A stretch of DNA of 64,000 bases from Bacteroidota bacterium (lineage in GTDB: Bacteria > Bacteroidota > Bacteroidia > Chitinophagales > LD1), in NCBI GenBank assembly GCA_026391075.1, contig JAPLES010000005.1:4533-68532 (forward strand). The letters are read 5' to 3'. The stretch's first letter is position 1. Each line of letters begins with the position of its first letter. The notes under the pieces were generated by a model. That model ran no database searches. It had not been told where the DNA came from and was given only the letters and a program-made list of their open reading frames with translations. The translations under genes and the position numbers were made by a program. Of the stretch, positions 13,462 through 61,090 are shown in pieces.

Positions 13462-14259
13462 TCAGATTTTTTCAAAAAGATTTTTTTCGACCCATCCCAC
13501 TTTGCCATCGGCTAAACGGATTTTATTCCAGTTGCCTACATGGTCAAGAATTTGGAATTTAATTCCCTCATGAATAGTGAAGAGGTCGGTGCCGTTGGCA
13601 TCTGGGGCGCTTTTTACGTTTACGTTTTCTGTAAGCAAAATAGCTTCGCATGAATTTTCTTCGGCATTACTTTGTTTAATGGCAAGCGAAACAGAGGTAA
13701 TAGAAAGGAGCAGAAACAAGATGCCAAGAAATAAAACGAATCCTTTTCTGGCAACGAAAATATAAACAGCAAACACTATCAACGCCACCCATACAAACCC
13801 AAGCGCAAAAACTCCCCAACCCTTTGATGATTGTGATGTGGTGAAATTGTTCCAGTTAGAAACAATAGCCATTTGCGGAACGGGAATTAGTTTGTCAACT
13901 ACTTTCAGTTGTGCAATTTTTAAATTGTGTGTAATGTCTTCATCTTCCGGAGCGAGTTTATGTGCGCGCTCAAAGTTCAGAATGGTTTTGCCGGTATTGT
14001 TCAACTTGAAATAACAATTGCCTAGGTTGTAATAAACTTCGGCTGTGCGATAACCCTGCGAAATAATTTTTCCGTAAGAAGCCTGCGCTTGTTCAAATTG
14101 ATTGGCTTTGTATTGTGCCGAAGCAGTTCTGTAAAGTTCGTTTGCGCTTTGTGCGGAGACATTAGACGTTAGACACAAGACTATAGACAATACAAAAAGC
14201 AGAGATGCCTTTCTGTAGAGTGATAACTGTTGTTTGTCAACTTTTATTTCCTGTCTCAT
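13462..14259 (-). CDS. batE: BatE-like protein (signal peptide, TPR repeats, TM segment, C-terminal SH3-like domain)
   Basis: TPR-like segments YRTASAQYKANQFEQAQ..YYNLGNCYFKLNN, hydrophobic segments, and the C-terminus GNWNKIRLADGKVGWVEKNLF (bacterial SH3-like). It lies directly downstream of the batD-like gene. Confidence 0.7.
   Translation of the reverse strand: MRQEIKVDKQQLSLYRKASLLFVLSIVLCLTSNVSAQSANELYRTASAQYKANQFEQAQASYGKIISQGYRTAEVYYNLGNCYFKLNNTGKTILNFERAHKLAPEDEDITHNLKIAQLKVVDKLIPVPQMAIVSNWNNFTTSQSSKGWGVFALGFVWVALIVFAVYIFVARKGFVLFLGILFLLLSITSVSLAIKQSNAEENSCEAILLTENVNVKSAPDANGTDLFTIHEGIKFQILDHVGNWNKIRLADGKVGWVEKNLFEKI
14156..14190. repeat. Heptad array, AGAC flavour (5 units), inside the batE signal-peptide codons
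   Basis: The + strand reads GAGACAT TAGACGT TAGACAC AAGACTA TAGACAA. Positions 14163-14188 are the inverted partner of 14260-14285. Confidence 0.85.
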
Positions 14260-14291
14260 GTCTATTATCTTGTGTCTATCGTCTAAACTCT
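14250..14291. repeat. Heptad array, GTCT flavour (6 units), filling the batD-batE spacer and the first batE codons
   Basis: The + strand reads CCTGTCT CATGTCT ATTATCT TGTGTCT ATCGTCT AAACTCT. It runs from the batD stop (14290-14292) across the batE ATG (14257-14259). Confidence 0.85.
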
Positions 14292-16161
14292 ATTTCACTT
14301 CATCTTCCAAATCTGCCATCAAATTCATAGCGGCATCATAGTTTTGTTTCATCTCTCCACCTTCCCCTACCGGTGAATACAAAGCGAGTTCGCAGGTGCT
14401 CAACAATACTTTCAGTTTCGAAATGGTTTCAGCCTTTGCGTTTCTAGCAAGCAACTTTTCTTCTACATTATCTTTCGAAAGTTCAGCCATGTCAATATTC
14501 AACTTGTCGCCTAAGTAACCCCAGATAGCGCGCGAAACTTCATCGTAGAAATTTTTCTTGTCACTCTTTGCCAAATGTTTTGCAGCAATGCTCAATCTCT
14601 TCTTTGCCAACTTGAGTGCTCTTCTTCTCTTAGTTCCTATTACATCAGCAGCAAGGTCTTCGTTTCTTCTTCTCGCCACCACCAAACCTATGAACAATAA
14701 AAACGGAGCCGAATACATCGCCACAAATCCGGCCGAGCCAAAAAATGAATTCCCTTTTTTGAATTCAGGTGTTGTTGTTTTAATGTAGCGAATATCCTGA
14801 CCAACCAATGAAACTTCTTCCTTGCTTACACCTGTCGCTCCGTTATTTGCATTTACATTTTTAGATGGTTCGCCAGTCACCTTCACTGTAAACTCAGGAG
14901 AGTTTATGCTAAAATATTTTGCGCTTGCTGGTTCGAACCATGAAAATGTTTTCGATTCAATTTTAAAATCACCGGGCTGGCGCGGAATGATAAGGTAGTC
15001 ATACTGTTTCGTTCCACTCATGCCACCGGCACTATTGCTGATGTTTTCTTTTGTTTTAGGGTCATACACTTCAAACTCCACAGGAAATTTAAGTGCAGGA
15101 GCATCTACAAATTTCAAATTTCCTGTGCCCGAAATTTTCAATGTGTATGTAATAGGCTCATCGGTTTTTGTTTCTTTGTTTGAAAGCGAAGATTCAAACT
15201 TGTAACTACCTACGGCTCCCGAAAAATCTGCGGGCTTGCCGTTTTCAGGAAGTTCTTTCACGTTCACTACTGCCGAAGAAGTTTTTAAAGTCATGGGCAC
15301 TTGCTGTATTTGCCCGAAAAAACTGCCAAAGAAATTTCTTTGATTGGAACGTACCTGCACTTGCACCACTGTTGAAAGTTCACATGAAGCCACCGGCAAA
15401 GCACCGGCACGTTGCGGATACAAATTGTATTTCAGAATTTCAATCGTGTTGTATTGCTTGCCGTTTATAGTTTCTATGGTTGGTCTGCGCTTAGGGTCAA
15501 GCTCCACTTCCTGACTCCAGTAGCCATCAAAAGCAGGGGCTTTTGTTACGTTGAAACCCGAAAGATTTTGGCGGAAATAAAGTTTGTATGCCGCGGTAAG
15601 CATTTCGCCTTTGTAAACCGAATTTTTATCTACCACTAATTTCATGAATACCTCATCCTTCAATTGTTTTTCTACATCGGCATTGTTGGTTTGCGGCTCT
15701 TCTTCTTCCTCTTGTCCTTGATTAAAGAAAGGATCATCAAACGGGTCAAAAGGATTTTGTTGTCTTCGTTGTTGTTGCTGTTGTTGTGCCACAGCTGCAG
15801 TTACTTCAATAGAAATTTCGTTGCTTTCCATAGTAACTCCACTCACTACAATACTCGCTTTGCCTATTTTAAACGCGCCTTGATTTTTTGGACGAAGAAT
15901 ATAATTGTAAGTAACACTTTGCGTTACGTTGCCATTTACCCATTGCCTACTAGTGGAAGTATTTGGCCCACCCAACACTTGGAAATCTGAAACAGCAGGC
16001 GGTTTCAAATTTGTTCCATTTCCGTTTTCAATAGTTAAGCTAAGTTGAAAATTAGAATTTAGCGGAACTGATTTAGGAGCAGAGGCATAAAATTTTGCTT
16101 GCGCAGAAGACGATAGACAATAGACGATAGACAATAGAAACACCAATGCAAAAATTCGCAT
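14290..16161 (-). CDS. batD: BatD-like oxygen-tolerance protein
   Basis: Signal peptide [22 protein letters not shown]. The N-terminal repeated Ig-like modules read F.A....V..N..F.L...I....-..P..SDFQVLGGP..S.S. A Gln/Glu-rich linker, a C-terminal TM segment and a basic patch (ARRRNEDL) follow. Start set to ATG 16161; the long ORF reaches 16242. Confidence 0.75.
   Translation of the reverse strand: MRIFALVFLLSIVYCLSSSAQAKFYASAPKSVPLNSNFQLSLTIENGNGTNLKPPAVSDFQVLGGPNTSTSRQWVNGNVTQSVTYNYILRPKNQGAFKIGKASIVVSGVTMESNEISIEVTAAVAQQQQQQRRQQNPFDPFDDPFFNQGQEEEEEPQTNNADVEKQLKDEVFMKLVVDKNSVYKGEMLTAAYKLYFRQNLSGFNVTKAPAFDGYWSQEVELDPKRRPTIETINGKQYNTIEILKYNLYPQRAGALPVASCELSTVVQVQVRSNQRNFFGSFFGQIQQVPMTLKTSSAVVNVKELPENGKPADFSGAVGSYKFESSLSNKETKTDEPITYTLKISGTGNLKFVDAPALKFPVEFEVYDPKTKENISNSAGGMSGTKQYDYLIIPRQPGDFKIESKTFSWFEPASAKYFSINSPEFTVKVTGEPSKNVNANNGATGVSKEEVSLVGQDIRYIKTTTPEFKKGNSFFGSAGFVAMYSAPFLLFIGLVVARRRNEDLAADVIGTKRRRALKLAKKRLSIAAKHLAKSDKKNFYDEVSRAIWGYLGDKLNIDMAELSKDNVEEKLLARNAKAETISKLKVLLSTCELALYSPVGEGGEMKQNYDAAMNLMADLEDEVK
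16108..16142. repeat. Heptad array, AGAC flavour, containing an exact 14-nt tandem duplication
   Basis: The + strand reads AGACGAT AGACAAT AGACGAT AGACAAT AGAAACA. GACGATAGACAATA occurs twice in tandem (16109-16122 and 16123-16136). This stretch encodes LSIVYCLSS of the BatD signal peptide. Confidence 0.9.
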
Positions 16162-16344
16162 ACCTGAAAATTCAAAAATGGATTTGCGCCACTTCGAATT
16201 TTGGACTTCGCACTTCAAACTTGTAACTATTCTCTTTCTCATTGGGCTCGCGAATATAATATGAACTTACGCCCGATAGCTACGATGGGTTAGCCCGTTA
16301 AATTTTTTTAGCAAAGAAGCATTGAGATTGAGCGAAGCTTGTCT

Positions 16345-16830
16345 TTATAGTTCTTCAAAAATTCCGGTTCCTTTGTTTTTTCGCACGTTGTTCCAGGTGA
16401 AATATTTTCCGTTCATGGCTACATAAACTCCAGCCGGTAATGTTTGAACAAATGCCAGGGCGCTTCCCAAATTAAATAAGCCGTCAGAACTTCCAAACTT
16501 GTAAGGAATCATAGCACCGGTAAGCACAATTGTTTTATTCAAATTAGCTAAGCCTAAAACTTTGGCGGTTTGTTCCATGGTATCTGTTCCGTGTGTAATT
16601 ACAATTTTTTCTTCCTCGCATTGTTGGCAATGGCTAACCATCAATTCGCGGTCGGCATCTTTCATTTCTAAACTGTCAATCATCATCAGCGTTCTTATCT
16701 GCACTTTCAGATTGCTTCGCCCTAATTGGAGAATTTCGGGCAAGTGAGTGTCTTTGAAAAACAGTTTTCCATTCAGCTCATCATACTCTTTATCGAAAGT
16801 TCCACCGGTAATTAAAATTTTTATTGCCAT
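16345..16830 (-). CDS. Short asparaginase-domain protein
   Basis: ILITGGTFDK (asparaginase N-terminal Thr motif region) and ITHGTDTMEQTA (second Thr motif). Start set to ATG 16830 (MAIKILITGG). Confidence 0.65.
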   Translation of the reverse strand: MAIKILITGGTFDKEYDELNGKLFFKDTHLPEILQLGRSNLKVQIRTLMMIDSLEMKDADRELMVSHCQQCEEEKIVITHGTDTMEQTAKVLGLANLNKTIVLTGAMIPYKFGSSDGLFNLGSALAFVQTLPAGVYVAMNGKYFTWNNVRKNKGTGIFEEL

Positions 16831-16873
16831 GGCGCGAAGAAAGAAAAAATGAAGTGGTTTCATCAAACTCGAT

Positions 16874-16902
16874 TTTGTCATCTCAATATTTTCCTATATT
16901 CG
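16874..16902 (+). promoter_or_regulatory. Possible Bacteroidota sigma-A promoter for the TonB-dependent receptor gene
   Basis: TTTG at 16874-16877, a 17-nt spacer, then TATATTCG at 16895-16902, which is a one-base deviation from TAnnTTTG. It lies about 40 nt upstream of ATG 16943. Confidence 0.25.
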
Positions 16903-16942
16903 ACACCACAAATCCCTCTAAACAGAAACCCCTAACAAAACC

Positions 16943-19834
16943 ATGAAGAAAATTTTACTTTTTGTTTTCATTTTGTTTGCAACAGCAACCTTATTTGCGC
17001 AAACAAAATCTATTATCGGAAAAATTATTGACACCAAAACCAAAGAGCCTATGACAGGCGCTAACGTGGTGGTGAAAGGAACTAAAATTGGTGCGGTAGC
17101 CGATGTAGATGGCAAGTTTGCGTTGGAAGTGCCCGTTGATGCAAAAACATTAACCATTACGTACATTGGTTATAACGCCAAAGATGTTTCTATTGGAAAT
17201 TCTACCAGCTTTAGCGTTTCAATGGAAGCTGCTGAAACTCTTAGTGGTGAAGTGGTGGTCACTTCCTCACGGGTGGCAGAATCGATTAAGCAAGCACCTC
17301 TGCAAATTGAAAAAATGACTTCGCGCGAAATCAAGAGCGCGGCATCGGGTGATTTTTATCAGAGCATTGGAAACTATAAAGGCATTGACATTATCACTAC
17401 CTCTTCGGGTTTCAAAGTAATTAACCTACGCGGTTTTGGAGATACGCGTTCACTAAGAACCAAACAATTTATTGATGGCATTGATAACGAAGCACCGGGT
17501 TTAAATTTTCAGATTGGAAACATGGTGGGAGCAAATGACTTGGATTTGGAGAGTGTAGAAATTATTTCGGGAGCAGCATCTTCTCTTTACGGAGCTAACG
17601 CCATGCAAGGTGTAATATCCATGCGCAGTAAAAATCCTTATGACTTTCAAGGTTTCTCAGCACAAATAAAAGGAGGGGGAACTTTAGCTCCTGCGCCTTA
17701 TGTAGATGCTCAGTTTCGTTACGCGCAAGCCTTTGGAAAAAGCCAACGTTTTGCTATCAAACTTACAGGTGAATACACGCAAACAAAAGATTGGGTTGCC
17801 GATGATGATTCGTTCAATCGCTATGGAAATATTAATGCCGATGTGAATGTGATTGGCGCGTTGCGCAAAAAGGTTTACTTACCCTATTGCCCTACTTGCC
17901 CCATCACAAATGAACAACACGATAAGTATGTAAAGTTGAATGGGTTTTTGGATTTTAATCCTACTGCTAACAATTTGGATTCAACGGTGCAGGGTGGTTA
18001 TGTTCATTTTCATGCACCTGGTTATATGGAAAAAGATTTAGCTGATTATAACGCGAAGAACGCGAAAATTTCAGCAGAGCTACATTACCGTTTCAAAAAC
18101 GATATTGAATTGATTGGTTCTTATAAGTTCGGTTATGGCACTGCAGTTTATCAAGCCACTGCTCGTTACCAAATTAAGGAGTTCACTTTTCACCAACCGA
18201 AAATTGAAATTAAAGGCAAAAACTTTTTTGTGCGTGCTTACGGGGCTATTGAAGATGCCGGTAAATCGTACAACATTGGTTTAACAGGGGCTTATATATC
18301 TCGCTCCGCTTTGCGCGATTCGGTTGCAGCTAAATATTCAAGCGTTTACTTCACCACTTTAGATTCAATTGTTGGTGGGTTTAGTAATTGCACCGATTGT
18401 TTTGAGAACAGGCCTAACGACCCGCGTATTGTTTATGCCCGACAGGTAGCCCGTGATGAATCGGAAAAAGAGTGGTATTCGGTAGGCTCGCAACTTTTTA
18501 AAGATTCGTTTAACCGTTACATTGCTGAAACAAACTCACTGGAAGGAACTAAGTTTTACGACAAGTCAATGATGTGGCATGTAGAAGGACAATATGATTG
18601 GGATTTTGTAAAATGGTTAGACATTATTACAGGAGCGTCTTACCGTATTTATATGCCTAACTCGCGCGGAACTATTTTTGAAGACACGGCCGGCAAAGTT
18701 TTACGCGTGCATGAAGTAGGTGCCTATTTACAAATGACCAAAAGATTGTTTAACGACAACTTTAAAATTATGGCTTCTATCCGAGTAGACAAGAACTCAA
18801 ATTTTAAGGCGCAGGTGTCTCCTCGTGGTTCATTAGTTTATACAGTTAAAGCAAAAAACAGCGATCATACTTTCCGCGCTTCGGTTACTTCGGCTTTCAG
18901 AACCCCAACTTTACAAGATCAATACTTGTATCTCAACATCGGTCGTTTATTCCTAGTAGGAAACTCCACCGGATATACCAACCTTTTTACGCGTGAATCA
19001 ACTCTTGAATATTACAGAACACCGGGCGATGCAGATGCAAAAAGTAAACTTGACCTCTTAAAACCAACCACACTCGCACCGCTTAAACCAGAGCAGGTAT
19101 TCTCCGTTGAGTTTGGTTATAGAACTGAAATTAAAAAGCGAGTTTATATTGATGTTTCGGCTTACTGGAGCCGGTATAGCAATTTTATAGGATTTCAACG
19201 GGTAGTTAAGACCCGTGCCGGTGATGCCAATGCCGACCGTACTTCTCAGGCATTTGAAGATGCAGTGAATTGCATTATCGTAAGTGATTCAACTAACTCT
19301 AAAGAGTTTGGTCCAGATCAAAAATATTATACTGTTTATCAAATGTGGGTGAATGCAACTACTAAAGTTCCATCGTGGGGCGCGGCTATAAGCATTGCTT
19401 ATTATGTAGGAAAAGGAATTACACCTTACGTTAATTATACCTACACCGACTTGGATGAAGCCAATCTAAAAAACAACGGAAGCACAGTACTTTCGGGTTT
19501 CAATACGCCTAAACACAAATTCAATATTGGTGTAAATGCGAACAAGGTAGTAGGTGGACTTGGGTTTAGTGCAAACTTTAAATGGGTTACCTCTTATAAC
19601 TGGCAAAGTCCTTTTGCCGATGGCAAAGTTCCTAGTTTCCATACGCTCGACTTCCAAATTTTCTACGACATAGAAAAAGCATATTCAACCATTCGTTTTG
19701 GTGCATCTAATATTTATAACAACCGCCACATTGAAGCGGTGGGTTCACCAAAAATTGGAGCCTTATACTATGCCGGTTGGACTTTCGATTTCAACAAGTT
19801 TAAAAAACCGGGAACTACTGCTTCGGCACAATAA
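16943..19834 (+). CDS. TonB-dependent outer-membrane receptor with an N-terminal carboxypeptidase-regulatory-like domain
   Basis: Signal peptide ..ATLFAQ, a CarbopepD_reg-like segment GKIIDTKTKEPMTGANVVVKGTKIGAVADVDGKFAL, the plug motif IEIISGAASSLYGANAMQGVIS, and a long beta-barrel. Length 963 aa. No adjacent SusD-like gene. Confidence 0.85.
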   Translation: MKKILLFVFILFATATLFAQTKSIIGKIIDTKTKEPMTGANVVVKGTKIGAVADVDGKFALEVPVDAKTLTITYIGYNAKDVSIGNSTSFSVSMEAAETLSGEVVVTSSRVAESIKQAPLQIEKMTSREIKSAASGDFYQSIGNYKGIDIITTSSGFKVINLRGFGDTRSLRTKQFIDGIDNEAPGLNFQIGNMVGANDLDLESVEIISGAASSLYGANAMQGVISMRSKNPYDFQGFSAQIKGGGTLAPAPYVDAQFRYAQAFGKSQRFAIKLTGEYTQTKDWVADDDSFNRYGNINADVNVIGALRKKVYLPYCPTCPITNEQHDKYVKLNGFLDFNPTANNLDSTVQGGYVHFHAPGYMEKDLADYNAKNAKISAELHYRFKNDIELIGSYKFGYGTAVYQATARYQIKEFTFHQPKIEIKGKNFFVRAYGAIEDAGKSYNIGLTGAYISRSALRDSVAAKYSSVYFTTLDSIVGGFSNCTDCFENRPNDPRIVYARQVARDESEKEWYSVGSQLFKDSFNRYIAETNSLEGTKFYDKSMMWHVEGQYDWDFVKWLDIITGASYRIYMPNSRGTIFEDTAGKVLRVHEVGAYLQMTKRLFNDNFKIMASIRVDKNSNFKAQVSPRGSLVYTVKAKNSDHTFRASVTSAFRTPTLQDQYLYLNIGRLFLVGNSTGYTNLFTRESTLEYYRTPGDADAKSKLDLLKPTTLAPLKPEQVFSVEFGYRTEIKKRVYIDVSAYWSRYSNFIGFQRVVKTRAGDANADRTSQAFEDAVNCIIVSDSTNSKEFGPDQKYYTVYQMWVNATTKVPSWGAAISIAYYVGKGITPYVNYTYTDLDEANLKNNGSTVLSGFNTPKHKFNIGVNANKVVGGLGFSANFKWVTSYNWQSPFADGKVPSFHTLDFQIFYDIEKAYSTIRFGASNIYNNRHIEAVGSPKIGALYYAGWTFDFNKFKKPGTTASAQ

Positions 19835-23293: not shown

Positions 23294-23330
23294 TATTTAT
23301 TTTTTAAGTTTGAAGGCGTGAATATAAAAC

Positions 23331-23365
23331 AGACGACAGATGTTAGACGTTAGATAGAAGATAAA
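23331..23365. repeat. Heptad array, AGAY flavour (5 units), in the 5' leader of the 1168-aa OMP gene
   Basis: The + strand reads AGACGAC AGATGTT AGACGTT AGATAGA AGATAAA. Positions 23337-23364 are complementary to 23464-23491. Confidence 0.85.
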
Positions 23366-23396
23366 TGCAAAAACAAAACCTTCCGCTTGGCTTTTA

Positions 23397-26300
23397 ATGA
23401 TTTATTTCAAGAACAAAATATTTCTCTTTAATACTTTCAATTCCCGTTTCTGGTTGTTGTCTATTGTCTATTGTCTATCGTCTACCATCTGCTCAGCTCA
23501 GGGCAACGAAAAATTTGGACAAAATCGCGTTCAGTATAAAGACTTCAGTTTTCAGTATTACGAGAGCGACAACTTCATAACTTACTTTTACATGGGCGGG
23601 CAGGACATTGCCAAGTATGTTATCAAATCTGCTGAAGACAATGCCGATGAAATTTCCAAGCTTCTTGATTTTCATTACAAGCGCAAAATTGACATCATTG
23701 TTTATAACAACATCAACGAACTCAATCAAACCAATATTGGTATTTACGACCAAGGGCAAAACCCGGGCGGCACCATAAAAATCCCCGACAGTAAATTGTT
23801 TGTTTACTTCAATGGCGACCATCGCCATCTCGACAAACAAATTCGCGAAGGCATTGCAAAAATTTATGTCAGCAAAATGATATTGGGAAGTTCTGTAGGC
23901 GAAGTTTTATCCAACGCGGTTTTGCTCAACCTGCCCGACTGGTATAAAGTAGGTTTGGTAAAATACATTGGCGAACCTTGGAACAGCGATATGGAAGACC
24001 GCCTTCGCGATGGTATCATGAGTGGCCGATTTACGCGTTTGCGCAAACTTGAAACCGATGAATCTATTTTTGTGGGGCATTCCATTTGGCATTACCTAGA
24101 AGAGGTGCACGGCAAAAGCGCGGTGAGCAATATTCTTTATCTCACACGAGTAAACCGAAGTGTTGACAACGGATTTATGTTTGTGTTGGGCACCAATCTT
24201 TCAGAAACGTTGCAACAGTGGTATGAATATTATCTCAATCGTTTTAGCAGCGAAGCCAAACTAACCTCTATGCCCGATGACAGTTCGTTATTAAAGGCAA
24301 AAATCAAAAAGAACATTGATTACTACCAAACCAAACTAAGTGCCGATGGCAAATTTGTGGCATATGCGAGCAATGATATGGGTAGATATAAAGTTCATCT
24401 ACTGAATACGGAAACGCAAAAGAGCATCGTGATTTTTAGAGGAGGATGGAGAACCAATACCATTTTTACCGACCAATCAATCCCTTTGCTCGCTTGGGAA
24501 CCTTCGGGTAAAAAACTGGCGATTATCAGTGATAAACGTTCCAATATTTTCATTCGGTTCTATGATACCGAAACAAAAAAAATGGAGAAAAACCCCGTGC
24601 GCAAATTTCAAAAAGTGGTGAGCTTTAGTTATGTAGATTCAAAACAATTGGTGATGAGCGCCATTCAAAACGGGCAAACCGATATTTATCTTTACAACGT
24701 TGCATCAACCACTACCCGAAAACTGACAGACGATTATTTTGATGATTTGTATCCAGCCTATATTGAAGCGGACAGTGTGCGCGGAATTATGTTTGCCAGC
24801 AATCGTGAAGATGATACACTACGACCATTGCGTTACGAATCGCAACGGGTCAACAATCGTCAACTCGATTTATTTTTTTATGATTTAAATGCCAGTCAGA
24901 ATTTTCTGTATCGCGTTACTTCTACTCCATTTGCTGATGAATCCTTTCCGCAAAATTTTAGTGAAAAAGAATTTTGTTTTTTAAGCGAAGAGAACGGAGT
25001 GCGCAATAGGCACATTGGTCATTTTGAAACTGTGTTTGATCACAATGAAAAAAATATTCGTTTCGTTTCGAAAGAAACCGGAGAGCTTGATTCTGTTCAG
25101 GTGCCGGCAAATATTTCTGCTACCAGCATGCTTGATCCTGCAAACGATCAACTGAAAGATACTTCCATTGCTAAGGTTTATAAACTGGGTGGTGCTACCG
25201 CGGCTTATACGAACTATACGCACAACATACGCGAGCAAACAATAATTTCGCAAAAAAATCTTGCGCTTGATGTTTTTAAAATCAAAAACAAAATTCAATT
25301 GCGCAAATACAATTTGCAATCAACTGGTACTACCAGCGAACCTGTTTTTGATTACATGATACAGTTGCAGAAAAAAGAAATTGAAGCTACCAAAGCCCAA
25401 GAAAAAAAAGAAGAACCTGCTGTAAAATCCTTTGTAGAAAAATACGATTCGCTAAAAGTGAATCGAGGTAATCGTCAGTTCGATTTTCAAAGCGAATTTG
25501 ATTACGGCATAAAACTTTTCGATTGGGATTCGGCTTCTGCGTTGAAATTAAAAAGCACTAACGAAGGTTATGTGTTTCGCTTTTCGCGCGTGCGCCCATA
25601 CTTTATTCGCTTTATGGTTGACAAAGTAATTGCTCAAGTAGATAACAGCATTATGGTTACGCGCTATCAGCCATTTGACCCTTACAATCCGCAGTTCAAT
25701 ACACAACCGGTGAGTTTTATGTTCAAGTTTGGCATTACTGATTTGCTCGAAAACCATAAACTATATGGCGGATTTGCTTTGCCATTTAGCGGCATCAATA
25801 GCAATTCGCAATATTTTATAACCTACGAAAATTTGACGAAGCGGCTCGATACTAAATTCACCTTCTTCAGAAAATCGTATGGCAGCACGGCTACGGGCAG
25901 GCTTCCGTTTACGAATACGATTTTACCTGCAGATTATTCTTTGCCGTATAGCATTAAGACAAACTATGCCGAGTTGCAATTCAATTATGCGCTCGATGTG
26001 TTGAGCAGTTTACGTTTTAGTTTTTCGTTTAGAAACGACAAAGTAGTTTACAAATCAATCGATACCTTTTCATTACATCTGCCTAGCATTTCTGATAACT
26101 GGTTGTTCTTTCGGGCTGAATATGTTTTCGACAATTGCATGGAAGTGGCTACCAACATTCGCTATGGAACGCGCTTCAAAGTTTTTGGCGAAGTGCATAA
26201 AGAATTTCCTACCAAAAACAAAAATGTTTCAGACCGATTTGATTTTCCGGTGGTACAGTTCAACAATAAAGTGCTGGGTGTGTTTGGATTTGATTTGCGC

Positions 26301-36100: not shown

Positions 36101-36130
36101 GCCCTCGCAAGAAATTGTGAGGGCTTTTTT
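36101..36130 (+). terminator. Rho-independent terminator after rplY
   Basis: GCCCTCGCA (36101-36109) pairs with TGTGAGGGC (36116-36124) around a 6-nt loop, followed by TTTTTT (36125-36130). Confidence 0.7.
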
Positions 36131-36133
36131 ATT

Positions 36134-36161
36134 TACTATTGCCTATTCACTATTCACTTTA
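36134..36161. repeat. Heptad array, CACTATT flavour (4 units), directly upstream of the pth start
   Basis: The + strand reads TACTATT GCCTATT CACTATT CACTTTA, then GACA-ATG (ATG at 36166). Confidence 0.8.
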
Positions 36162-36165
36162 GACA

Positions 36166-51290: not shown

Positions 51291-51301
51291 GGGAGGGAAT
51301 T

Positions 51302-51336
51302 AATAGTGAATAGTAAATAGTGAATAGTAACAGACG
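51302..51336. repeat. Heptad array, TAGTRAA flavour, with an exact 14-nt tandem duplication directly upstream of the membrane-protein start
   Basis: The + strand reads AATAGTG AATAGTA AATAGTG AATAGTA ACAGACG. AATAGTGAATAGTA occurs twice in tandem (51302-51315 and 51316-51329). On the gene-sense strand this is TACTATT CACTATT repeated twice, ending 11 nt before TTG 51290. Confidence 0.9.
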
Positions 51337-57321: not shown

Positions 57322-59313
57322 TTAGTCTTTCATTTTAATCAGCAATGTATTTGCCTCTACAAAAGATTTCTCTGCCACAAAAACTTCTTCCACTTCACCA
57401 TCGGTGTGCGCTTCAATAGTGGTTTCCATTTTCATTGAACTCATTACGAGCAATCCTTTGCCGCTTTGAATTTTGTCTCCTGCTTTCACTAACACCTTCA
57501 CAATTTCTCCCGGCATTGGTGCTATGTAACCACCTTTCACAATTTCAGTTCCAGGTTCAACAAAACGCGGAGCTTCTTTCAATTTAAATGTTCCAGCCGA
57601 TGGATGCTGTATAAAAATGTCGCGATTATTTTGCGCAATAAAAAATGATTGACGATGATTTTCTATAGAGAAATTAACCTGGTTATTTCTAACACTCACC
57701 AACTCTACAGAATAGTTTTTGCTATTGTTCGAAACTTCAAACTGATTGTTTTGCTTGTAACGGTATTCCAGTTTTATTTTCTGCTCAGCAAATTCAATTT
57801 CAAAAATTTGTGCCGAGTAAAAAATATTTCTCCAGCCATTCAACAAATGCGAAGCTTTTTCGTTTTGCTTTCGCTTTGACCAATCAAACAAAAGTGCAGC
57901 AATAGCCATTTCGTTTATTTCGCTTTCAGTCGGAGTTTTTTTGTAAGAAGAGAAATCGCGCTCAATCAATTTGGTATCGAAACTTCCGTCTATAAAATTT
58001 TTATGTTGAAGAAGTTCCTTCTGAAAATCTTTGTTTGTAGTAACACCCAATACAGCATATTTATCTAAGCCCAACAACATTTTCTGAATGGCTTCTGTTC
58101 TGTCTTTACCCGTTGCAATTACTTTAGCCACCATCGAATCGTAATGAACAGGAATTTCAGAACCGGTTTGCATTCCGCTATCAAAGCGCAAACCTTTTAA
58201 GCAAGGCTCGCTGTAAAAAAGTATTTCCCCAGTAGCAGGAAAGAAATTATTCTCCGCGTCTTCTGCACAAATTCTGCACTCAATAGAATGTCCTTGCTGT
58301 TTAATTTCATCTTGCTTTACCGAAAGCGGTTTGCCTTGCGCCACGTCAATTTGCATACGAACCAAATCCAATCCCGTAGTTTCTTCAGTAACCGGATGTT
58401 CTACTTGCAAGCGGGTGTTTACTTCTAAAAAGAAAAATGATTTTTCTTCTGCGCTATACAAAAACTCAACCGTACCTGCTCCTGTATATTTTACGGCAAA
58501 AGCTAATTGCACTGCGGCTTTTCCCATTTGCACACGCAACTCATTGGTAAGCGAAGGCGATGGACTTTCTTCAATTACTTTTTGGTAACGCCTTTGCATG
58601 GAGCATTCGCGCTCAAACAAATGAACATAGTTGCCGTGTACATCACCAAAAATTTGAATCTCGATATGCTTTGCCTTCGGAAAATATTTTTCAATCAAAA
58701 CAGTACTGTCACCAAAACTTTTTTCGGCTTCGCGTTTTGCAGCATCAATTGCCGCTTCGCTTTCTGCAGCAGAATTTACAATGCGCATTCCTTTTCCACC
58801 GCCACCAGCACTGGCTTTTATCAAAACAGGGAAACCGATTTTCTCTGCTTCTTTTTTTAATGTGGCAGTACTTTGGTCTTTACCATTATAACCGGGCACG
58901 GTTGGAACTTTCGCTTTTATCGCAATTTCTTTCGCACCAATTTTTGAACCCAATTGTGTAATTACATCAGCCGAAGGACCAATGAAAATAATTCCTTCAT
59001 CGGCAAAGCGTTTTGAAAACGTTGCGTTCTCTGAAAGAAAACCGTAGCCCGGGTGAATAGCATTTGCACCGGTTTGTTTAGCCGCAGCAATAATTTTATC
59101 CTGTACCAAATAACTTTCACCGGCTGCATTTCCTCCAATACAAATAGCCTCATCGGCTCGTTTTACAAACAGTGCATTTTTATCTGCATCGGAAAAAACA
59201 GCTACTGTTTTTATTCCCATTTCCGCTGCTGTGCGAAAAACACGAATAGCAATTTCGCCTCGGTTGGCAACTAATATTTTTTTGATTGTTTGCATTTGTC
59301 TATTGTCTAACAT
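57322..59313 (-). CDS. Acyl-CoA carboxylase alpha subunit (biotin carboxylase plus biotin carboxyl carrier domain; methylcrotonyl-CoA-carboxylase-like)
   Basis: [17 protein letters not shown]-grasp [26 protein letters not shown], and the C-terminal biotinylation motif [14 protein letters not shown]. The start could be the second ATG at 59295. Confidence 0.88.
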
Positions 59314-59336
59314 CTAATATCTGCTTCTTACATCCT
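59295..59336. repeat. Heptad array, GTCT/ATCT flavour (6 units), spanning the junction of the two carboxylase genes
   Basis: The + strand reads TTTGTCT ATTGTCT AACATCT AATATCT GCTTCTT ACATCCT. It covers the alpha-subunit start (59311-59313), the 14-nt spacer and the beta-subunit stop (59328-59330). Confidence 0.8.
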
Positions 59337-60926
59337 AAAAACTCCAAAGCCTTCGGCACCTTTAAATTCTGTTTGATGAATCACATCTAAACATAACTTC
59401 AAATAATTTCTGGTTTCGCGTGGGTCAATCACTCCATCATCCCAAAGTTGTCCGCTGGCATACCAAGCGTTGCTTTGTTTTTCAGCTTCTTTAACCATGT
59501 ACTCGGACATTGCTTTTCCTTGTTCTTCATCATATTGAATTCCCGATTTTTCTGCTGCCTGTCTGCCTATGGTTTGCATTACTCCTGCTAATTGGTCGGG
59601 ACCCATGACTGCAATTTTTGAATGAGGATAGCTGAAAAGAAATCTAGGTTTATAAGCGCGACCACACATGGCGTAATTGCCCGCGCCATAACTTGCTCCT
59701 GTAATAATGGTGATGGCAGGAACCGTAGAATTGCTCACCGCGTTAATCAATTTTGCTCCGTGCTTTATAATTCCTTCTTCTTCATATTTTTTTCCAACCA
59801 TAAAGCCGGTGATGTTTTGAAGAAATAAAAGCGGTGTATTATTTTGATTGCAAAGCTGAATGAAGTGTGCGCCTTTGTTTGCCGCTTCTGAAAACAAAAC
59901 TCCATTGTTGGCTATGATGCCTATTTGATGGCCATTAATTTTTGCATAACCCGTTACCAAGGTACTTCCATATGCAGGTTTAAATTCAGAGAAATCACTT
60001 CCATCAACTATTCGCGCAATTAATTCGCGCTGGTCGAAAGGAATGCGCACATCGGCAGAAACGACACCTAAGATTTCATCGTTGTCGTATTTTGGTTCTT
60101 GTATTTCTATCGTCTCTTGTCTATCGCCTATCGTTTGTTTTAAATTCGAAACAATTTCTCTTGCCAATCTTATTCCATCCATCTCATCTTCGGCCATGTA
60201 ATCAGAAACTCCCGAAACGGTGCTGTGCATTTTTGCTCCTCCCAAACTTTCTTCATCGGTAACTTCGTTGGTTGCCATTTTTACGAGTGGCGGACCGGCA
60301 AGAAAAACCTTGGCTTCGTTCTTCACCATGATGACGTAATCGCTCATACCAGGTATGTATGCACCACCAGCAGTGCTGCTTCCGAATACAATAGAGATGG
60401 TAGGAATTCCCAATTTGCTTCGTTGCGTAATGCCTCTGAAATTTGCTCCACCGTAATTAAAAATCTTTGCTTGTTCAGGTAGATTTGCTCCGGCACTTTC
60501 TACCATGTTTATCATGGGCAACTTATTTTCGGTGGCTATTTCGCCAATGCGCAAACCCTTTTGCAGGGTAGCATAATCAATAGCTCCGCCTTTAATCGTT
60601 CCCACGTTTGAATTGATCATGCACATTCTACCGCTTACAAAACCCATTCCTGCAACCACCGTTCCACCAGTGCCAAAACCATCGCCTCCCCATCCTGCAA
60701 AAGGACAAAGCTCCATGAAAGGAGAATCTACATCGAGGAGCATTTCAATTCTTTCGCGAGCTAAAAGGCGACCTGCTTTTTTAGTGCGCGCCAGATATTT
60801 TTCTTCGCCTTGAAAGAGTGCTTCTTTTTGTTTGGCTTCGAGCTCAACTATTTTCTCCTTCATCAAGGCTAAGTTGCGCTGATAGCTTTCGGAGTTGCGG
60901 TTTATTTTTGATTGAAATACTGACAT
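59328..60926 (-). CDS. Acyl-CoA carboxylase beta subunit (carboxyltransferase; methylcrotonyl-CoA-carboxylase-like)
   Basis: Two crotonase-like carboxyltransferase halves. Motifs include GRMCMINSNVGTIKGG, FGSSTAGGAYIPGMSD, NNGVLFSEAANKGAHFIQLC and GASYGAGNYAMCGRAY. Length 532 aa. Confidence 0.88.
   Translation of the reverse strand: MSVFQSKINRNSESYQRNLALMKEKIVELEAKQKEALFQGEEKYLARTKKAGRLLARERIEMLLDVDSPFMELCPFAGWGGDGFGTGGTVVAGMGFVSGRMCMINSNVGTIKGGAIDYATLQKGLRIGEIATENKLPMINMVESAGANLPEQAKIFNYGGANFRGITQRSKLGIPTISIVFGSSTAGGAYIPGMSDYVIMVKNEAKVFLAGPPLVKMATNEVTDEESLGGAKMHSTVSGVSDYMAEDEMDGIRLAREIVSNLKQTIGDRQETIEIQEPKYDNDEILGVVSADVRIPFDQRELIARIVDGSDFSEFKPAYGSTLVTGYAKINGHQIGIIANNGVLFSEAANKGAHFIQLCNQNNTPLLFLQNITGFMVGKKYEEEGIIKHGAKLINAVSNSTVPAITIITGASYGAGNYAMCGRAYKPRFLFSYPHSKIAVMGPDQLAGVMQTIGRQAAEKSGIQYDEEQGKAMSEYMVKEAEKQSNAWYASGQLWDDGVIDPRETRNYLKLCLDVIHQTEFKGAEGFGVFRM
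60102..60136. repeat. Heptad array, GTCT flavour (5 units), inside the inter-domain linker codons of the carboxyltransferase gene
   Basis: The + strand reads TATTTCT ATCGTCT CTTGTCT ATCGCCT ATCGTTT, which encodes KQTIGDRQETIEIQ on the minus strand. Confidence 0.7.
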
Positions 60927-60973: not shown

Positions 60974-61029
60974 AATAGTGAACTCTTACTTAACAAGGAC
61001 GAGGGACGAGAGCGAGAGACGAGGGGGAT
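60974..61029. repeat. Heptad array: one TAGTG unit followed by GACGAGR units (the purine-rich arm)
   Basis: In 7-nt phase the + strand reads AATAGTG AACTCTT ACTTAAC AAGGACG AGGGACG AGAGCGA GAGACGA GGGGGAT. Confidence 0.75.
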
Positions 61030-61059
61030 GCAAATACAGGTTTTGCCTTTCTGTTTTAA

Positions 61060-61090
61060 CTCTTGTCCTTCGACCCTCGCCCTCGCCCCT
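61060..61090. repeat. Pyrimidine-rich heptad arm, the approximate inverted partner of 60995-61027
   Basis: The + strand reads CTCTTGTCCTTCGACCCTCGCCCTCGCCCCT. Its reverse complement is AGGGGCGAGGGCGAGGGTCGAAGGACAAGAG, compared with the left arm AAGGACGAGGGACGAGAGCGAGAGACGAGGGGG. Confidence 0.7.

What the first reader, a model, noticed from the sequence alone, without database searches (positions are those of the whole stretch)
14156..14291. A 26-nt inverted repeat made of heptads brackets the batE start codon
On the + strand, 14163-14188 reads TAGACGTTAGACACAAGACTATAGAC. The reverse complement of 14260-14285 reads TAGACGATAGACACAAGATAATAGAC. That is 23 of 26 positions complementary, with a few further pairs on each side.
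In the minus-strand mRNA, the 5' arm occupies essentially the whole batD-batE spacer and ends at the base immediately before the AUG. The 3' arm encodes residues of the signal-peptide core (VLSIVLCLTSN). The AUG and the first ~23 codons sit in a 71-nt loop at the stem base.
I see three hypotheses:
- an mRNA stem that gates batE translation initiation or couples it to batD translation;
- a small invertible segment, in which inversion removes the ATG (I checked that the inverted orientation gives no in-frame fusion, since it reads ..TGT CTA TAG);
- a repeat insertion that was exapted as a signal peptide.
Basis: partly seen in the sequence, partly recalled or inferred. Interest (0 to 1): 0.6.

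Follow-up and report, generated by a model that had tools for sequence, protein, structure and literature searches.

The report
Heptad-repeat hairpin over batE start
The inverted repeat is real: two arrays of a 7-base repeat, one filling the batD-batE spacer and one encoding the BatE signal-peptide core, can zip the batE start into a long mRNA hairpin, and relatives rebuild it with unrelated 7-base units.

Summary
**Observation:** confirmed. Arms 14157-14189 and 14259-14291 are 33 nt and 85% complementary. The minus-strand RNA folds at -48.8 kcal/mol (z = -6.9).

**Not a singleton.** TAGACNN heptad arrays occur at seven sites in the window. They include a second inverted pair bracketing another start codon (ATG 23397) and the BatD signal peptide. 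Other heptad families are present too.

**In close relatives** (uncultured Chitinophagales), the batD-stop-to-BatE-signal-peptide segment behaves as a replaceable cassette.
- Six of eight TAGAC-type junctions keep the hairpin.
- Other relatives carry unrelated heptads at the same place, again as inverted arrays.
- Against one relative at 84-89% nucleotide identity, the alignment breaks at the outer ends of the arms.
- Against another, fourfold sites are 53% diverged but the arms only 8-9%.
- batE was the structural outlier among 51 gene starts.
- 39 more distant orthologues lack the hairpin.

**Best reading (inferred):** an mRNA hairpin, specific to this clade, that occludes batE initiation and makes it depend on ribosome traffic. 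It is built from slippage-prone heptad repeats that also encode signal-peptide cores.

**Main rival:** a non-functional, self-maintaining quasi-palindrome.

**DNA inversion:** no support.

**Limits:** fine-scale covariation is absent, and function is untested.

The parts
14259..14291 (-). 5' arm of the hairpin in the mRNA. Heptads UAGAGUU UAGACGA UAGACAC AAGAUAA UAGAC(A). It fills the whole 30-nt batD-batE spacer and carries TAG in all three frames.
14290..14292 (-). batD stop codon TAG, which is the first heptad of the 5' arm
14257..14259 (-). batE start codon. The A is the last stem pair and UG opens the loop. It lies inside the heptad run UAGACAUGAGAC.
14190..14258 (-). Loop, covering batE codons 1 to about 23. 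In relatives it carries further heptad arrays (TTGGCAG, GGGCAGT, ATCGGCA).
14192..14216 (-). Small inner stem-loop ACAGAAAGGCAUCUCUGCUUUUUGU within the loop. It encodes YRKASLLF and is kept in the TAGAC-type relatives.
14157..14189 (-). 3' arm. GUCUA-sense heptads that encode the BatE signal-peptide core (L)SIVLCLTSNVS.
13462..14259 (-). batE (TPR + SH3_3, 265 aa)
14290..16242 (-). batD (BatD domain). An alternative start is the ATG at 16161.
16103..16143 (-). Same heptad family, GUCUA sense, encoding the BatD signal-peptide core [11 protein letters not shown]. No inverted partner.
23326..23365 (+). Second hairpin of the same family: TAGAC-sense 5' arm in the leader of the 1168-aa gene
23445..23494 (+). 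Second hairpin: GUCUA-sense 3' arm encoding the signal-peptide core [14 protein letters not shown] 23397 lies in the loop.
59293..59325 (-). TAGAC-sense heptads filling an intercistronic spacer and abutting or overlapping the start of the 663-aa ORF. No partner.
60105..60134 (-). Degenerate TAGAC-sense heptads inside the 532-aa ORF

Best explanation
**What it is (shown).**
- A discrete cassette of about 137 nt runs from the batD stop codon to the BatE signal-peptidase site.
- It is built from two inverted arrays of an imperfect 7-nt repeat, TAGACNN.
- The purine-rich sense array cannot be translated, because it has TAG in every frame. It forms the intercistronic spacer.
- The complementary GUCUANN array is translated as V/Y/C/L/L/S/I-type residues. 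It supplies the hydrophobic core of the BatE signal peptide.
- The heptad family is dispersed in this genome, an uncultured Chitinophagales bacterium. Heptad arrays in general pile up at gene 5' ends in this lineage.

**How it most likely works (inferred).**
- In the batD-batE mRNA the two arrays zip into a stem of about 30 bp. The stem buries the whole region upstream of the batE AUG.
- Bacteroidota ribosomes do not use Shine-Dalgarno pairing, and initiation is tuned by structure around the start codon.
- The closed hairpin should therefore block de novo initiation.
- batE would be translated only while the stem is prevented from forming. That could happen three ways: on nascent transcripts before the 3' arm is made, by ribosomes terminating at the batD UAG at the foot of the stem, or by ribosomes already crossing the 3' arm.
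- This ties BatE output to batD translation and to ribosome traffic.
- A 30-bp duplex would also be a plausible RNase III substrate, which would reinforce the shut-off.
- Slippage in units of 7 nt, kept in frame as 21 nt in the coding arm, makes the stem quick to build, tune and replace.
For: **Structure.** -48.8 kcal/mol, z = -6.9.

**Recurrence at this junction.**
- Six of eight TAGAC-type junctions have z between -3.2 and -8.5.
- Junctions with unrelated heptads again place inverted arrays at the start and in the signal peptide: L002 CCATTGA/TCAATGG, L170 TTCGGAA/TTCCGAA, L171 AAGTTCA/CTTTGGT, L172 CCAATTA/TTGGTCA, L173 CATTGAC/CAATGGTC. The long hairpin is the MFE fold in each.
- Each heptad type pairs best with its own partner arm.

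**Discreteness.** The collinear alignment to L003 (84-89% identity) breaks at window 14155-14293.

**Constraint.** Against L162, fourfold sites differ at 53%. The non-coding 5' arm differs at 3/33, the 3' arm at 3/36, the loop at 17/69 and the next 36 nt at 20/36.

**Site specificity.**
- batE is the outlier among 51 gene starts, z = -8.7 against -2.7 for the next.
- None of 39 more distant orthologues reaches z below -2.

**RNA level.** The sense strand is more stable than the antisense strand in 12 of 13 junctions, against 54% of 48 control starts.

**Background.** Translation initiation in Flavobacterium johnsoniae is tuned by structure in the initiation region in the absence of SD (PMC6847099). 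In H. influenzae hmw1A a heptamer repeat forms one arm of a long 5'-UTR hairpin cleaved by RNase III (PMC12721329).
Against: - **No covariation.** Within the TAGAC clade the pairs are conserved but invariant. Only 2 of 36 pairs show double changes, the covariation term is +0.24, and arms are interchangeable between lineages.
- **Losses.** The hairpin is lost or weak in L164, L169 and L003, so it is dispensable.
- **Weak z-scores.** Those for L170 (-1.4) and L172 (-1.05) are not significant. L002 gives -1.1 in one frame and -3.8 in another.
- **Incomplete mechanism.** A ribosome stopped at the batD UAG would open only about the outer third of the stem, so simple coupling is not a full account.
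- **Hairpins away from start codons.** Heptad hairpins also occur where no start codon is covered: window about 60995-61090, L014 7597-7914, and a viral contig, L180. A mutational process can therefore make them without this function.
- **Non-independence.** The sequences compared are phylogenetically related.
- **No expression data** of any kind.
Confidence: 0.45

Rival explanations
1. Non-adaptive quasi-palindrome. Slippage-prone heptad arrays accumulate wherever sequence constraint is loose, namely spacers, n-regions and h-regions of signal peptides. Once two short complementary seeds face each other, hairpin-templated repair or template switching co-expands and homogenises both arms. The hairpin is then a self-maintaining mutational by-product that is tolerated, not used.
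For: - Period-7 arrays are 5-30 times more frequent than arrays at lags 5, 8, 10 or 11. They are densest in the close clade, at 3.6 per 10 kb.
- They sit in signal peptides and transmembrane segments of many genes.
- No fine-scale covariation.
- The hairpin is lost in some relatives.
- Heptad hairpins exist away from start codons and in an unrelated high-GC viral contig.
- An in-frame 7-aa (3-heptad) difference separates P0004 from L002.
- Mrazek et al. 2007, as summarised in PMC4679880, propose polymerase slippage for heptanucleotide repeats.
Against: - It does not explain why batE alone among 51 starts carries a strong hairpin, nor why that recurs there with at least five heptad types.
- The non-coding arm is conserved at 9% divergence where neutral sites are 53% diverged. 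Homogenisation could mimic this.
- The sense strand is biased towards G-U pairing.
Confidence: 0.3
2. RNA processing or stability element. The long duplex is an RNase III (or other) target that severs batE from batD and sets their relative mRNA levels, rather than acting on initiation.
For: - A near-perfect duplex of 28-30 bp.
- An experimental precedent of a heptamer-repeat hairpin cleaved by RNase III in hmw1A (PMC12721329).
Against: - Cleavage in the 3' arm would cut inside the batE coding sequence, so it could only lower BatE. That overlaps with the main explanation rather than competing with it.
- No data on RNase III in this organism.
- No terminator-like feature.
Confidence: 0.12
3. Miniature mobile element of the MITE or REPIN type. 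It would have heptad terminal inverted repeats, insert at the junction and bring its own start codon.
For: - Discrete boundaries in the comparison with L003.
- Whole-cassette replacement in L170 and L002.
- Two tandem intergenic copies of an AATTACG-heptad hairpin element with similar flanks in L014.
Against: - The two TAGAC hairpins in the window share arms but not loops.
- No target-site duplication and no empty site seen.
- One arm is coding and under protein-level constraint.
- No transposase among the neighbouring genes examined.
- Arrays vary in units of 7 nt, as slippage predicts.
Confidence: 0.08
4. Site-specific DNA inversion switch. Flipping 14190-14258 removes the batE start.
For: Only the presence of an inverted repeat around a start codon.
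Against: - The same orientation appears in the window, L001, L082 and all orthologues.
- No inverted-junction match in the fetched loci.
- No recombinase among the neighbouring genes examined, 7.8-23.3 kb.
- A 69-bp spacer is very short for recombinase synapsis (general knowledge).
- The same architecture recurs with both arms inside the reading frame, where inversion makes no sense.
Confidence: 0.02

Closest known systems
Heptanucleotide simple-sequence repeats next to start codons: cyanobacterial STRR, and the TAACTGA repeats of Beggiatoaceae, Cyanobacteria and a few Bacteroidetes (MacGregor 2015, PMC4679880)
   Same: - Short arrays of 2-6 copies of a 7-nt unit, dispersed through the genome.
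- Oriented towards, and ending within a few nucleotides of, start codons.
- Intercistronic spacers are filled by them.
- Indels come in 7-nt steps.
- A role in translation is suspected.
   Different: - A different unit (TAGACNN and several others, not TAACTGA), and imperfect copies.
- The arrays come as inverted pairs that form a hairpin, whereas MacGregor found one inverted case among 170 sets.
- One arm is translated as a signal-peptide core.
Haemophilus influenzae hmw1A 5'-UTR hairpin (Rapun-Araiz et al. 2025, PMC12721329)
   Same: A heptameric repeat, (ATCTTTC)n, is transcribed and forms one arm of a long hairpin that controls expression of the downstream gene. Repeat number tunes the structure.
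   Different: - There the partner arm is a non-repeat G-rich segment and the whole hairpin lies in the 5' UTR. RNase III cleavage raises expression.
- Here both arms are heptad arrays, the hairpin spans an intercistronic spacer plus coding sequence, and no processing has been shown.
REP/REPIN elements (Bertels and Rainey 2011, PMC3116915)
   Same: Two inverted short repeats separated by a spacer, forming a hairpin of about 100 nt, dispersed in the genome, with single 'orphan' arms also present.
   Different: - REPINs are extragenic, have family-specific conserved sequence including the spacer, and depend on a RAYT transposase.
- Here one arm is coding, loops are unrelated between copies, arms are tandem heptads, and no RAYT is known.
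Coding repeats in leader peptides of phase-variable genes, such as the Neisseria opa CTCTT pentamers (own knowledge, not checked here)
   Same: A tandem repeat whose unit is not a multiple of three lies in the signal-peptide coding region and is read in all three frames as hydrophobic residues.
   Different: - The opa repeats are perfect and switch the gene on and off by frameshift.
- Here the repeats are imperfect, every allele seen is in frame, and the changes seen are 21 nt or whole-cassette swaps.
Start-site occlusion and translational coupling hairpins in polycistronic mRNAs, such as RNA-phage coat/replicase (own knowledge)
   Same: A long-range stem hides a downstream start, and upstream translation or co-transcriptional kinetics opens it.
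   Different: Those stems are unique sequences with documented covariation. Here the stem is built from a genome-wide repeat and is replaced wholesale.

Membership tests
Heptanucleotide SSR / STRR-type arrays at start codons | Tandem direct repeats of a 7-nt unit | tested here: met
   - TRF period 7: 14157-14192 (5.1 copies, 72% matches), 16108-16138, 23457-23484.
- Lag-7 runs: 11, against 0-2 at lags 4, 5, 8, 10 and 11.
Heptanucleotide SSR / STRR-type arrays at start codons | The same unit recurs at many sites in the genome | tested here: met
   Seven TAGAC arrays in 64 kb. Hits number 9 against 0.10 expected, and 19 against 1.1 expected. A whole-genome count was not possible.
Heptanucleotide SSR / STRR-type arrays at start codons | Arrays oriented towards, and ending next to, a start codon | tested here: met
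   14260-14291 (batE), 59296-59325, 36125-36165 (ATG 36166), and the 23326-23365 leader.
Heptanucleotide SSR / STRR-type arrays at start codons | Copy-number change in 7-nt steps between relatives | tested here: inconclusive
   - P0004 and L002 differ by 7 aa, which equals 3 heptads.
- L167 has three GTCTTGT units where the window has one.
- No population data.
REP/REPIN | Two inverted repeats with a spacer forming a hairpin | tested here: met
REP/REPIN | Extragenic location | tested here: not met
   The 3' arm is batE codons about 24-33.
REP/REPIN | Copies share a conserved spacer or internal sequence | tested here: not met
   The loops of the two TAGAC hairpins in the window are unrelated.
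REP/REPIN | A cognate RAYT (Y1) transposase in the genome | not testable with these tools
   Only 64 kb of the genome is available. No transposase among the neighbouring genes examined.
Invertible DNA switch (inverton) | Inverted repeats flanking a segment that carries a promoter or start | tested here: met
Invertible DNA switch (inverton) | Both orientations present in sequence data | tested here: not met
   One orientation in all 14 junctions, and no flipped junction in 173 loci. Raw reads were not testable.
Invertible DNA switch (inverton) | A site-specific recombinase nearby | tested here: not met
   Neighbours are RecQ, ScpA, an RNase T-like exonuclease, MscL, asparaginase, a TonB-dependent receptor and a metallo-beta-lactamase fold protein.
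Cis-regulatory mRNA hairpin occluding a start site | Stability well beyond composition-matched random sequence, with the start region inside the stem | tested here: met
   z = -6.9. Positions -33 to +1 are paired.
Cis-regulatory mRNA hairpin occluding a start site | Structure conserved in orthologues | tested here: met
   Nine of 14 close junctions have z of -2.4 or below in at least one frame (L002 -1.1 in another). None of 39 distant orthologues and 3 of 48 control starts do.
Cis-regulatory mRNA hairpin occluding a start site | Compensatory base changes | tested here: inconclusive
   Only 2 of 36 pairs show double changes. Whole-arm replacement by other heptads keeps the pairing.
Cis-regulatory mRNA hairpin occluding a start site | Effect on translation | not testable with these tools
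   Needs reporters, ribosome profiling or structure probing.
Rfam families | Match to a curated covariance model | tested here: not met
   Nothing at the locus at E of 1 or below.

The most novel reading that the evidence does not exclude
This Chitinophagales clade may carry a general, so far undescribed system. In it, interchangeable heptad-repeat cassettes are written at gene 5' ends. Each cassette specifies a signal-peptide core and, as its inverted copy upstream, an antisense 'lock' on the gene's own start codon. That would be either a new evolvable layer of control over secreted and membrane proteins in bacteria that lack Shine-Dalgarno initiation, or a new kind of repeat-generating or mobile mechanism with dedicated machinery.
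Probability: 0.12. Interest if true: 0.85.

Novelty: new variant of a known kind. Interest (0 to 1): 0.55.

Why it matters
Bacteroidota start translation without Shine-Dalgarno pairing, and how they set the output of individual genes within an operon is still largely open.

This case offers a hairpin that can be assembled, tuned and replaced in 7-nt steps. One strand of it doubles as a signal peptide. That would be a simple and highly evolvable way to tie a secreted protein's synthesis to upstream translation.

It also shows that signal-peptide sequences in this lineage are shaped by a nucleotide-level repeat process rather than by protein-level selection alone. That affects gene-start calling, signal-peptide prediction and alignment of N-termini in metagenome-assembled genomes.

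If the hairpins turn out to be non-functional, they are still a clean natural example of co-evolving inverted microsatellites.

Tried and rejected
- **Metagenome scan.** The search for orthologous junctions used generic TPR peptide patterns and returned almost only distant gut Bacteroidales. Only L082 was close, and it proved mosaic against the window, so it was not used for rates.
- **Fine-scale covariation.** RNAalifold on 8 junctions and a cross-pairing energy matrix gave no lineage-specific co-evolution within the TAGAC clade.
- **Rfam.** No family.
- **Terminator and sigma-70 promoter scan.** No terminator. The one promoter-like hit lies upstream inside batD, and the consensus does not apply to Bacteroidota.
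- **Flipped-orientation junction search.** None found.
- **Recombinase or transposase near the locus.** None found.
- **DNA-level inverted-repeat search at more distant junctions and folding of 41 further orthologues.** No hairpin outside the close clade, so it is not an ancestral bat-operon feature.
- **Conservation of the second hairpin in L003.** Uninformative, because that region is 95% identical overall.
- **Terminator function.** Rejected: no U-tract follows the stem and the 3' arm is coding.
- **Source genome.** It is not among the GTDB species representatives (best BatE identity 84%), so no genome-wide census was possible.
Full report
**Observation**

The repeat finder extends the arms to 14157-14189 and 14259-14291: 33 nt, 85% complementary, 69 nt apart.

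On the minus strand:
- batD is 14290..16242 and contains a BatD domain.
- batE is 13462..14259 and contains TPR + SH3_3.
- The batD stop codon TAG (14292-14290) is the first heptad of the 5' arm.
- The A of the batE AUG is the last pair of the stem.
- The 3' arm covers codons about 24-33, the hydrophobic core of what looks like a Sec signal peptide. That is by inspection only.

RNA 14150-14295 (-) folds at -48.8 kcal/mol against -25.9 +/- 3.3 for 200 dinucleotide shuffles. This gives z = -6.9, and no shuffle is as stable.

**The heptad is a dispersed family**

The arm motif with up to 3 mismatches hits 9 times in the window against 0.10 expected. TAGACNNTAGAC with up to 1 mismatch hits 19 times against 1.1.

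| Site | Context |
|---|---|
| 14157-14189 / 14259-14291 | The two batE arms |
| 16103-16143 | BatD signal-peptide core [11 protein letters not shown], no partner |
| 23326-23365 / 23445-23494 | Second inverted pair. ATG 23397 of a 1168-aa protein lies in the loop. The 3' arm encodes [11 protein letters not shown]. -36.4 kcal/mol, z = -2.6 |
| 59293-59325 | Fills the spacer between two minus-strand genes and runs up to the start |
| 60105-60134 | Degenerate array inside a coding region |

Other heptads occur as well:
- CUAUUCA-sense arrays abut ATG 36166 and lie in the 51296-51333 spacer.
- A GGACGAG/CCCTCGC inverted pair lies in a divergent intergenic region at about 60995-61090 (z = -2.7).
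- Period-7 runs number 11. Lags 4, 5, 8, 10 and 11 give 0-2.

The strand rule follows from the genetic code. TAGAC-sense arrays have TAG in all three frames, so they can only be non-coding or degenerate. GUCUA-sense arrays read as V/Y/C/L/L/S/I, a serviceable hydrophobic helix.

**Relatives**

BatE homologues place the window in uncultured Chitinophagales. I obtained junction DNA for 13 relatives.

- **Eight junctions, counting the window, are TAGAC-type.** Protein identity to the window is 70-92%. They share the layout stop-TAG / heptad spacer / AUGAGAC / loop / GUCUA array.
- **Six of the eight fold far better than shuffles.** The values are window -5.9, L162 -8.5, L167 -6.1, L168 -4.4, L163 -3.5 and L166 -3.2.
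- **L164 and L169 fold no better than shuffles** (z = -0.9 each). L164 has lost the 5' arm.
- **Other relatives carry unrelated heptads in the same architecture:**
  - L002 has CCATTGA in the spacer and TGGTCA(A/G) in the signal peptide.
  - L170 has a TTCGGAA/TTCCGAA pair nested upstream of an orphaned TAGAC 3' arm.
  - L171 (AAGTTCA/CTTTGGT), L172 (CCAATTA/TTGGTCA) and L173 (CATTGAC/CAATGGTC) have both arms inside the reading frame, as the charged n-region and the h-region. The long hairpin is still the MFE fold.
- **L003 has GAAGTCG heptads,** no stop codon (batD and batE read through) and no hairpin.

**A discrete, fast-turning cassette under constraint**

- L003 is collinear with the window at 84-89% nucleotide identity. 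The alignment breaks at window 14155-14293, the outer ends of the arms, opposite an unrelated 94 nt.
- P0004 and L002 differ by exactly 7 aa, which is 21 nt or three heptads.
- Where the TAGAC type is retained, it is strongly conserved. The comparison with L162:

| Region | Differences from L162 |
|---|---|
| Fourfold sites in mature BatE | 53% |
| Non-coding 5' arm | 3/33 |
| 3' arm | 3/36 |
| Loop | 17/69 |
| Next 36 nt | 20/36 |

**Specificity**

- Among 51 called gene starts in L162, L170 and L171, batE is the outlier, at z = -8.7. The next is -2.7. Several other starts carry heptad-coded signal peptides and still do not stand out.
- Of the 41 further junctions folded, only L002, a close relative, reached z = -3.8. 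None of the 39 more distant orthologues (35-67% identity) went below -2.
- The hairpin is therefore an innovation of this clade, not a property of bat operons.
- The sense strand folds better than the antisense strand in 12 of 13 junctions, by a mean of about 6.5 kcal/mol. This holds for 54% of 48 control starts. That hints at G-U pairs, and so at the RNA level. The junctions are not independent: about five heptad types are represented.

**What does not fit a classical regulatory RNA**

- RNAalifold on the eight TAGAC junctions finds 36 pairs, but only two have double changes, and the covariation term is +0.24.
- In a cross-pairing matrix, arms are interchangeable within the clade. Only between heptad types does each arm prefer its own partner.
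- The structure is lost in some relatives.
- Heptad hairpins occur away from start codons. Examples are window about 60995-61090, two tandem AATTACG elements in L014, and a perfect (GGTAGAC)n/(GTCTACC)n hairpin in a high-GC viral contig.
- A mutational route therefore exists. It would combine slippage with hairpin-templated correction of quasi-palindromes.

**Mechanism (inferred)**

Bacteroidota ribosomes ignore Shine-Dalgarno sequences, and initiation is tuned by structure around the start (PMC6847099). A 30-bp stem covering -33 to +1 should block de novo initiation at batE.

Translation would then be confined to situations in which the stem cannot form:
- nascent RNA, before the 3' arm is transcribed;
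- ribosomes terminating at the UAG at the foot of the stem;
- ribosomes crossing the 3' arm.

This links BatE to batD translation. A terminating ribosome would open only about the outer third of the stem, so kinetic or traffic effects are needed as well.

The duplex is also a plausible RNase III substrate. In H. influenzae hmw1A a transcribed heptamer repeat forms one arm of a long regulatory hairpin (PMC12721329).

I put this reading at about 0.45. The non-adaptive quasi-palindrome is at about 0.3.

**Rejected or disfavoured**

- **DNA inversion.** One orientation everywhere, no flipped junction, no recombinase nearby, and a 69-bp spacer.
- **Terminator.** None.
- **Rfam family.** None.
- **REPIN or MITE.** One arm is coding, the loops of the copies are unrelated, and there is no target duplication.

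**Comparison and novelty**

Already described:
- Heptanucleotide arrays abutting start codons are known in Beggiatoaceae, Cyanobacteria and a few Bacteroidetes (PMC4679880).
- A heptamer repeat acting as a hairpin arm is documented for hmw1A.

I did not find any of the following in the literature searches:
- the pairing of two inverted heptad arrays, one of which is translated as a signal-peptide core;
- its recurrence at one junction with at least five unrelated heptads;
- the cassette-like replacement.

I rate it a new variant of a known kind.

Noticed in passing
window 23326-23494: Second TAGAC-heptad inverted pair. It brackets ATG 23397 of a 1168-aa secreted protein of unknown family. The 5' arm is in the leader of a divergently transcribed gene, so no upstream cistron could open it. 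-36.4 kcal/mol, z = -2.6.
   Followed up: partly
window 60985-61090: Inverted pair of a different, GC-rich heptad (GGACGAG / CCCTCGC) in a divergent intergenic region. It covers no start codon. -41.7 kcal/mol, z = -2.7.
   Followed up: partly
window 36125-36165 and 51296-51333: Arrays of one further heptad (mRNA sense CUAUUCA) on opposite strands. One ends at ATG 36166, directly after a terminator-like GC stem and T-run. The other lies in a spacer between two minus-strand genes.
   Followed up: partly
window 16200-16228 and 16103-16143: The long batD ORF has a second, unrelated period-7 run (GAAGT-type) in a possible N-terminal extension. The true batD start could be ATG 16242 or ATG 16161 ([22 protein letters not shown]).
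   Followed up: no
L003 10001-10120: In MAG RH-26jul17-168 the batD stop codon is missing. batD reads in frame through a GAAGTCG-heptad segment and a signal-peptide-like stretch into batE. This is an apparent BatD-BatE fusion, or internal GTG initiation.
   Followed up: partly
L162 10510-10562; L168 1450-1499; L169 2659-2707; L170 10543-10585: The internal transmembrane segment of BatE is also encoded by a heptad array (GCTCTTT / GCTTTTT / GTTCTTT units) in several relatives. Heptad coding is therefore not limited to N-terminal signal peptides.
   Followed up: no
L162 4098-4215, 7181-7264, 8057-8170; L171 1714-1830, 2619-2700: Different proteins in one genome share nearly identical heptad-coded signal-peptide cores (LLSTVNCQLSTAQ, WSMVGSQWS). 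This parallels [10 protein letters not shown] in two proteins of the window.
   Followed up: partly
L014 7597-7914: Two tandem intergenic copies of a hairpin element of about 120 nt. Its arms are AATTACG heptads and its flanks are similar, which looks like a MITE or REPIN.
   Followed up: no
L180 9800-9940 (IMG/VR contig 3300031671_000017): A high-GC viral contig carries a near-perfect (GGTAGAC)n / (GTCTACC)n hairpin between two genes, ending 3 nt before an ATG. Inverted heptad arrays are therefore not confined to Chitinophagales. 51 viral stretches hold at least 4 TAGAC heptads.
   Followed up: partly
window 14293-14322 and orthologues: The last 30 nt of batD (ATGGCAGATTTGGAAGATGAAGTGAAA) differ at only 1-2 positions from L162, L168 and L166, although fourfold sites are 25-53% diverged. 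This suggests a nucleotide-level constraint just upstream of the hairpin.
   Followed up: no
L082 versus window: The 93%-identical metagenome contig is mosaic. Long stretches are identical, including the whole cassette, and alternate with blocks of 10-25% divergence. This points to strain recombination or chimeric assembly.
   Followed up: partly
window 16345-19834: In this clade batD-batE are preceded by an asparaginase gene (and, in L164, a lipocalin-like gene) rather than by batA-C as in L162 and L170. The operon context has been rearranged.
   Followed up: no
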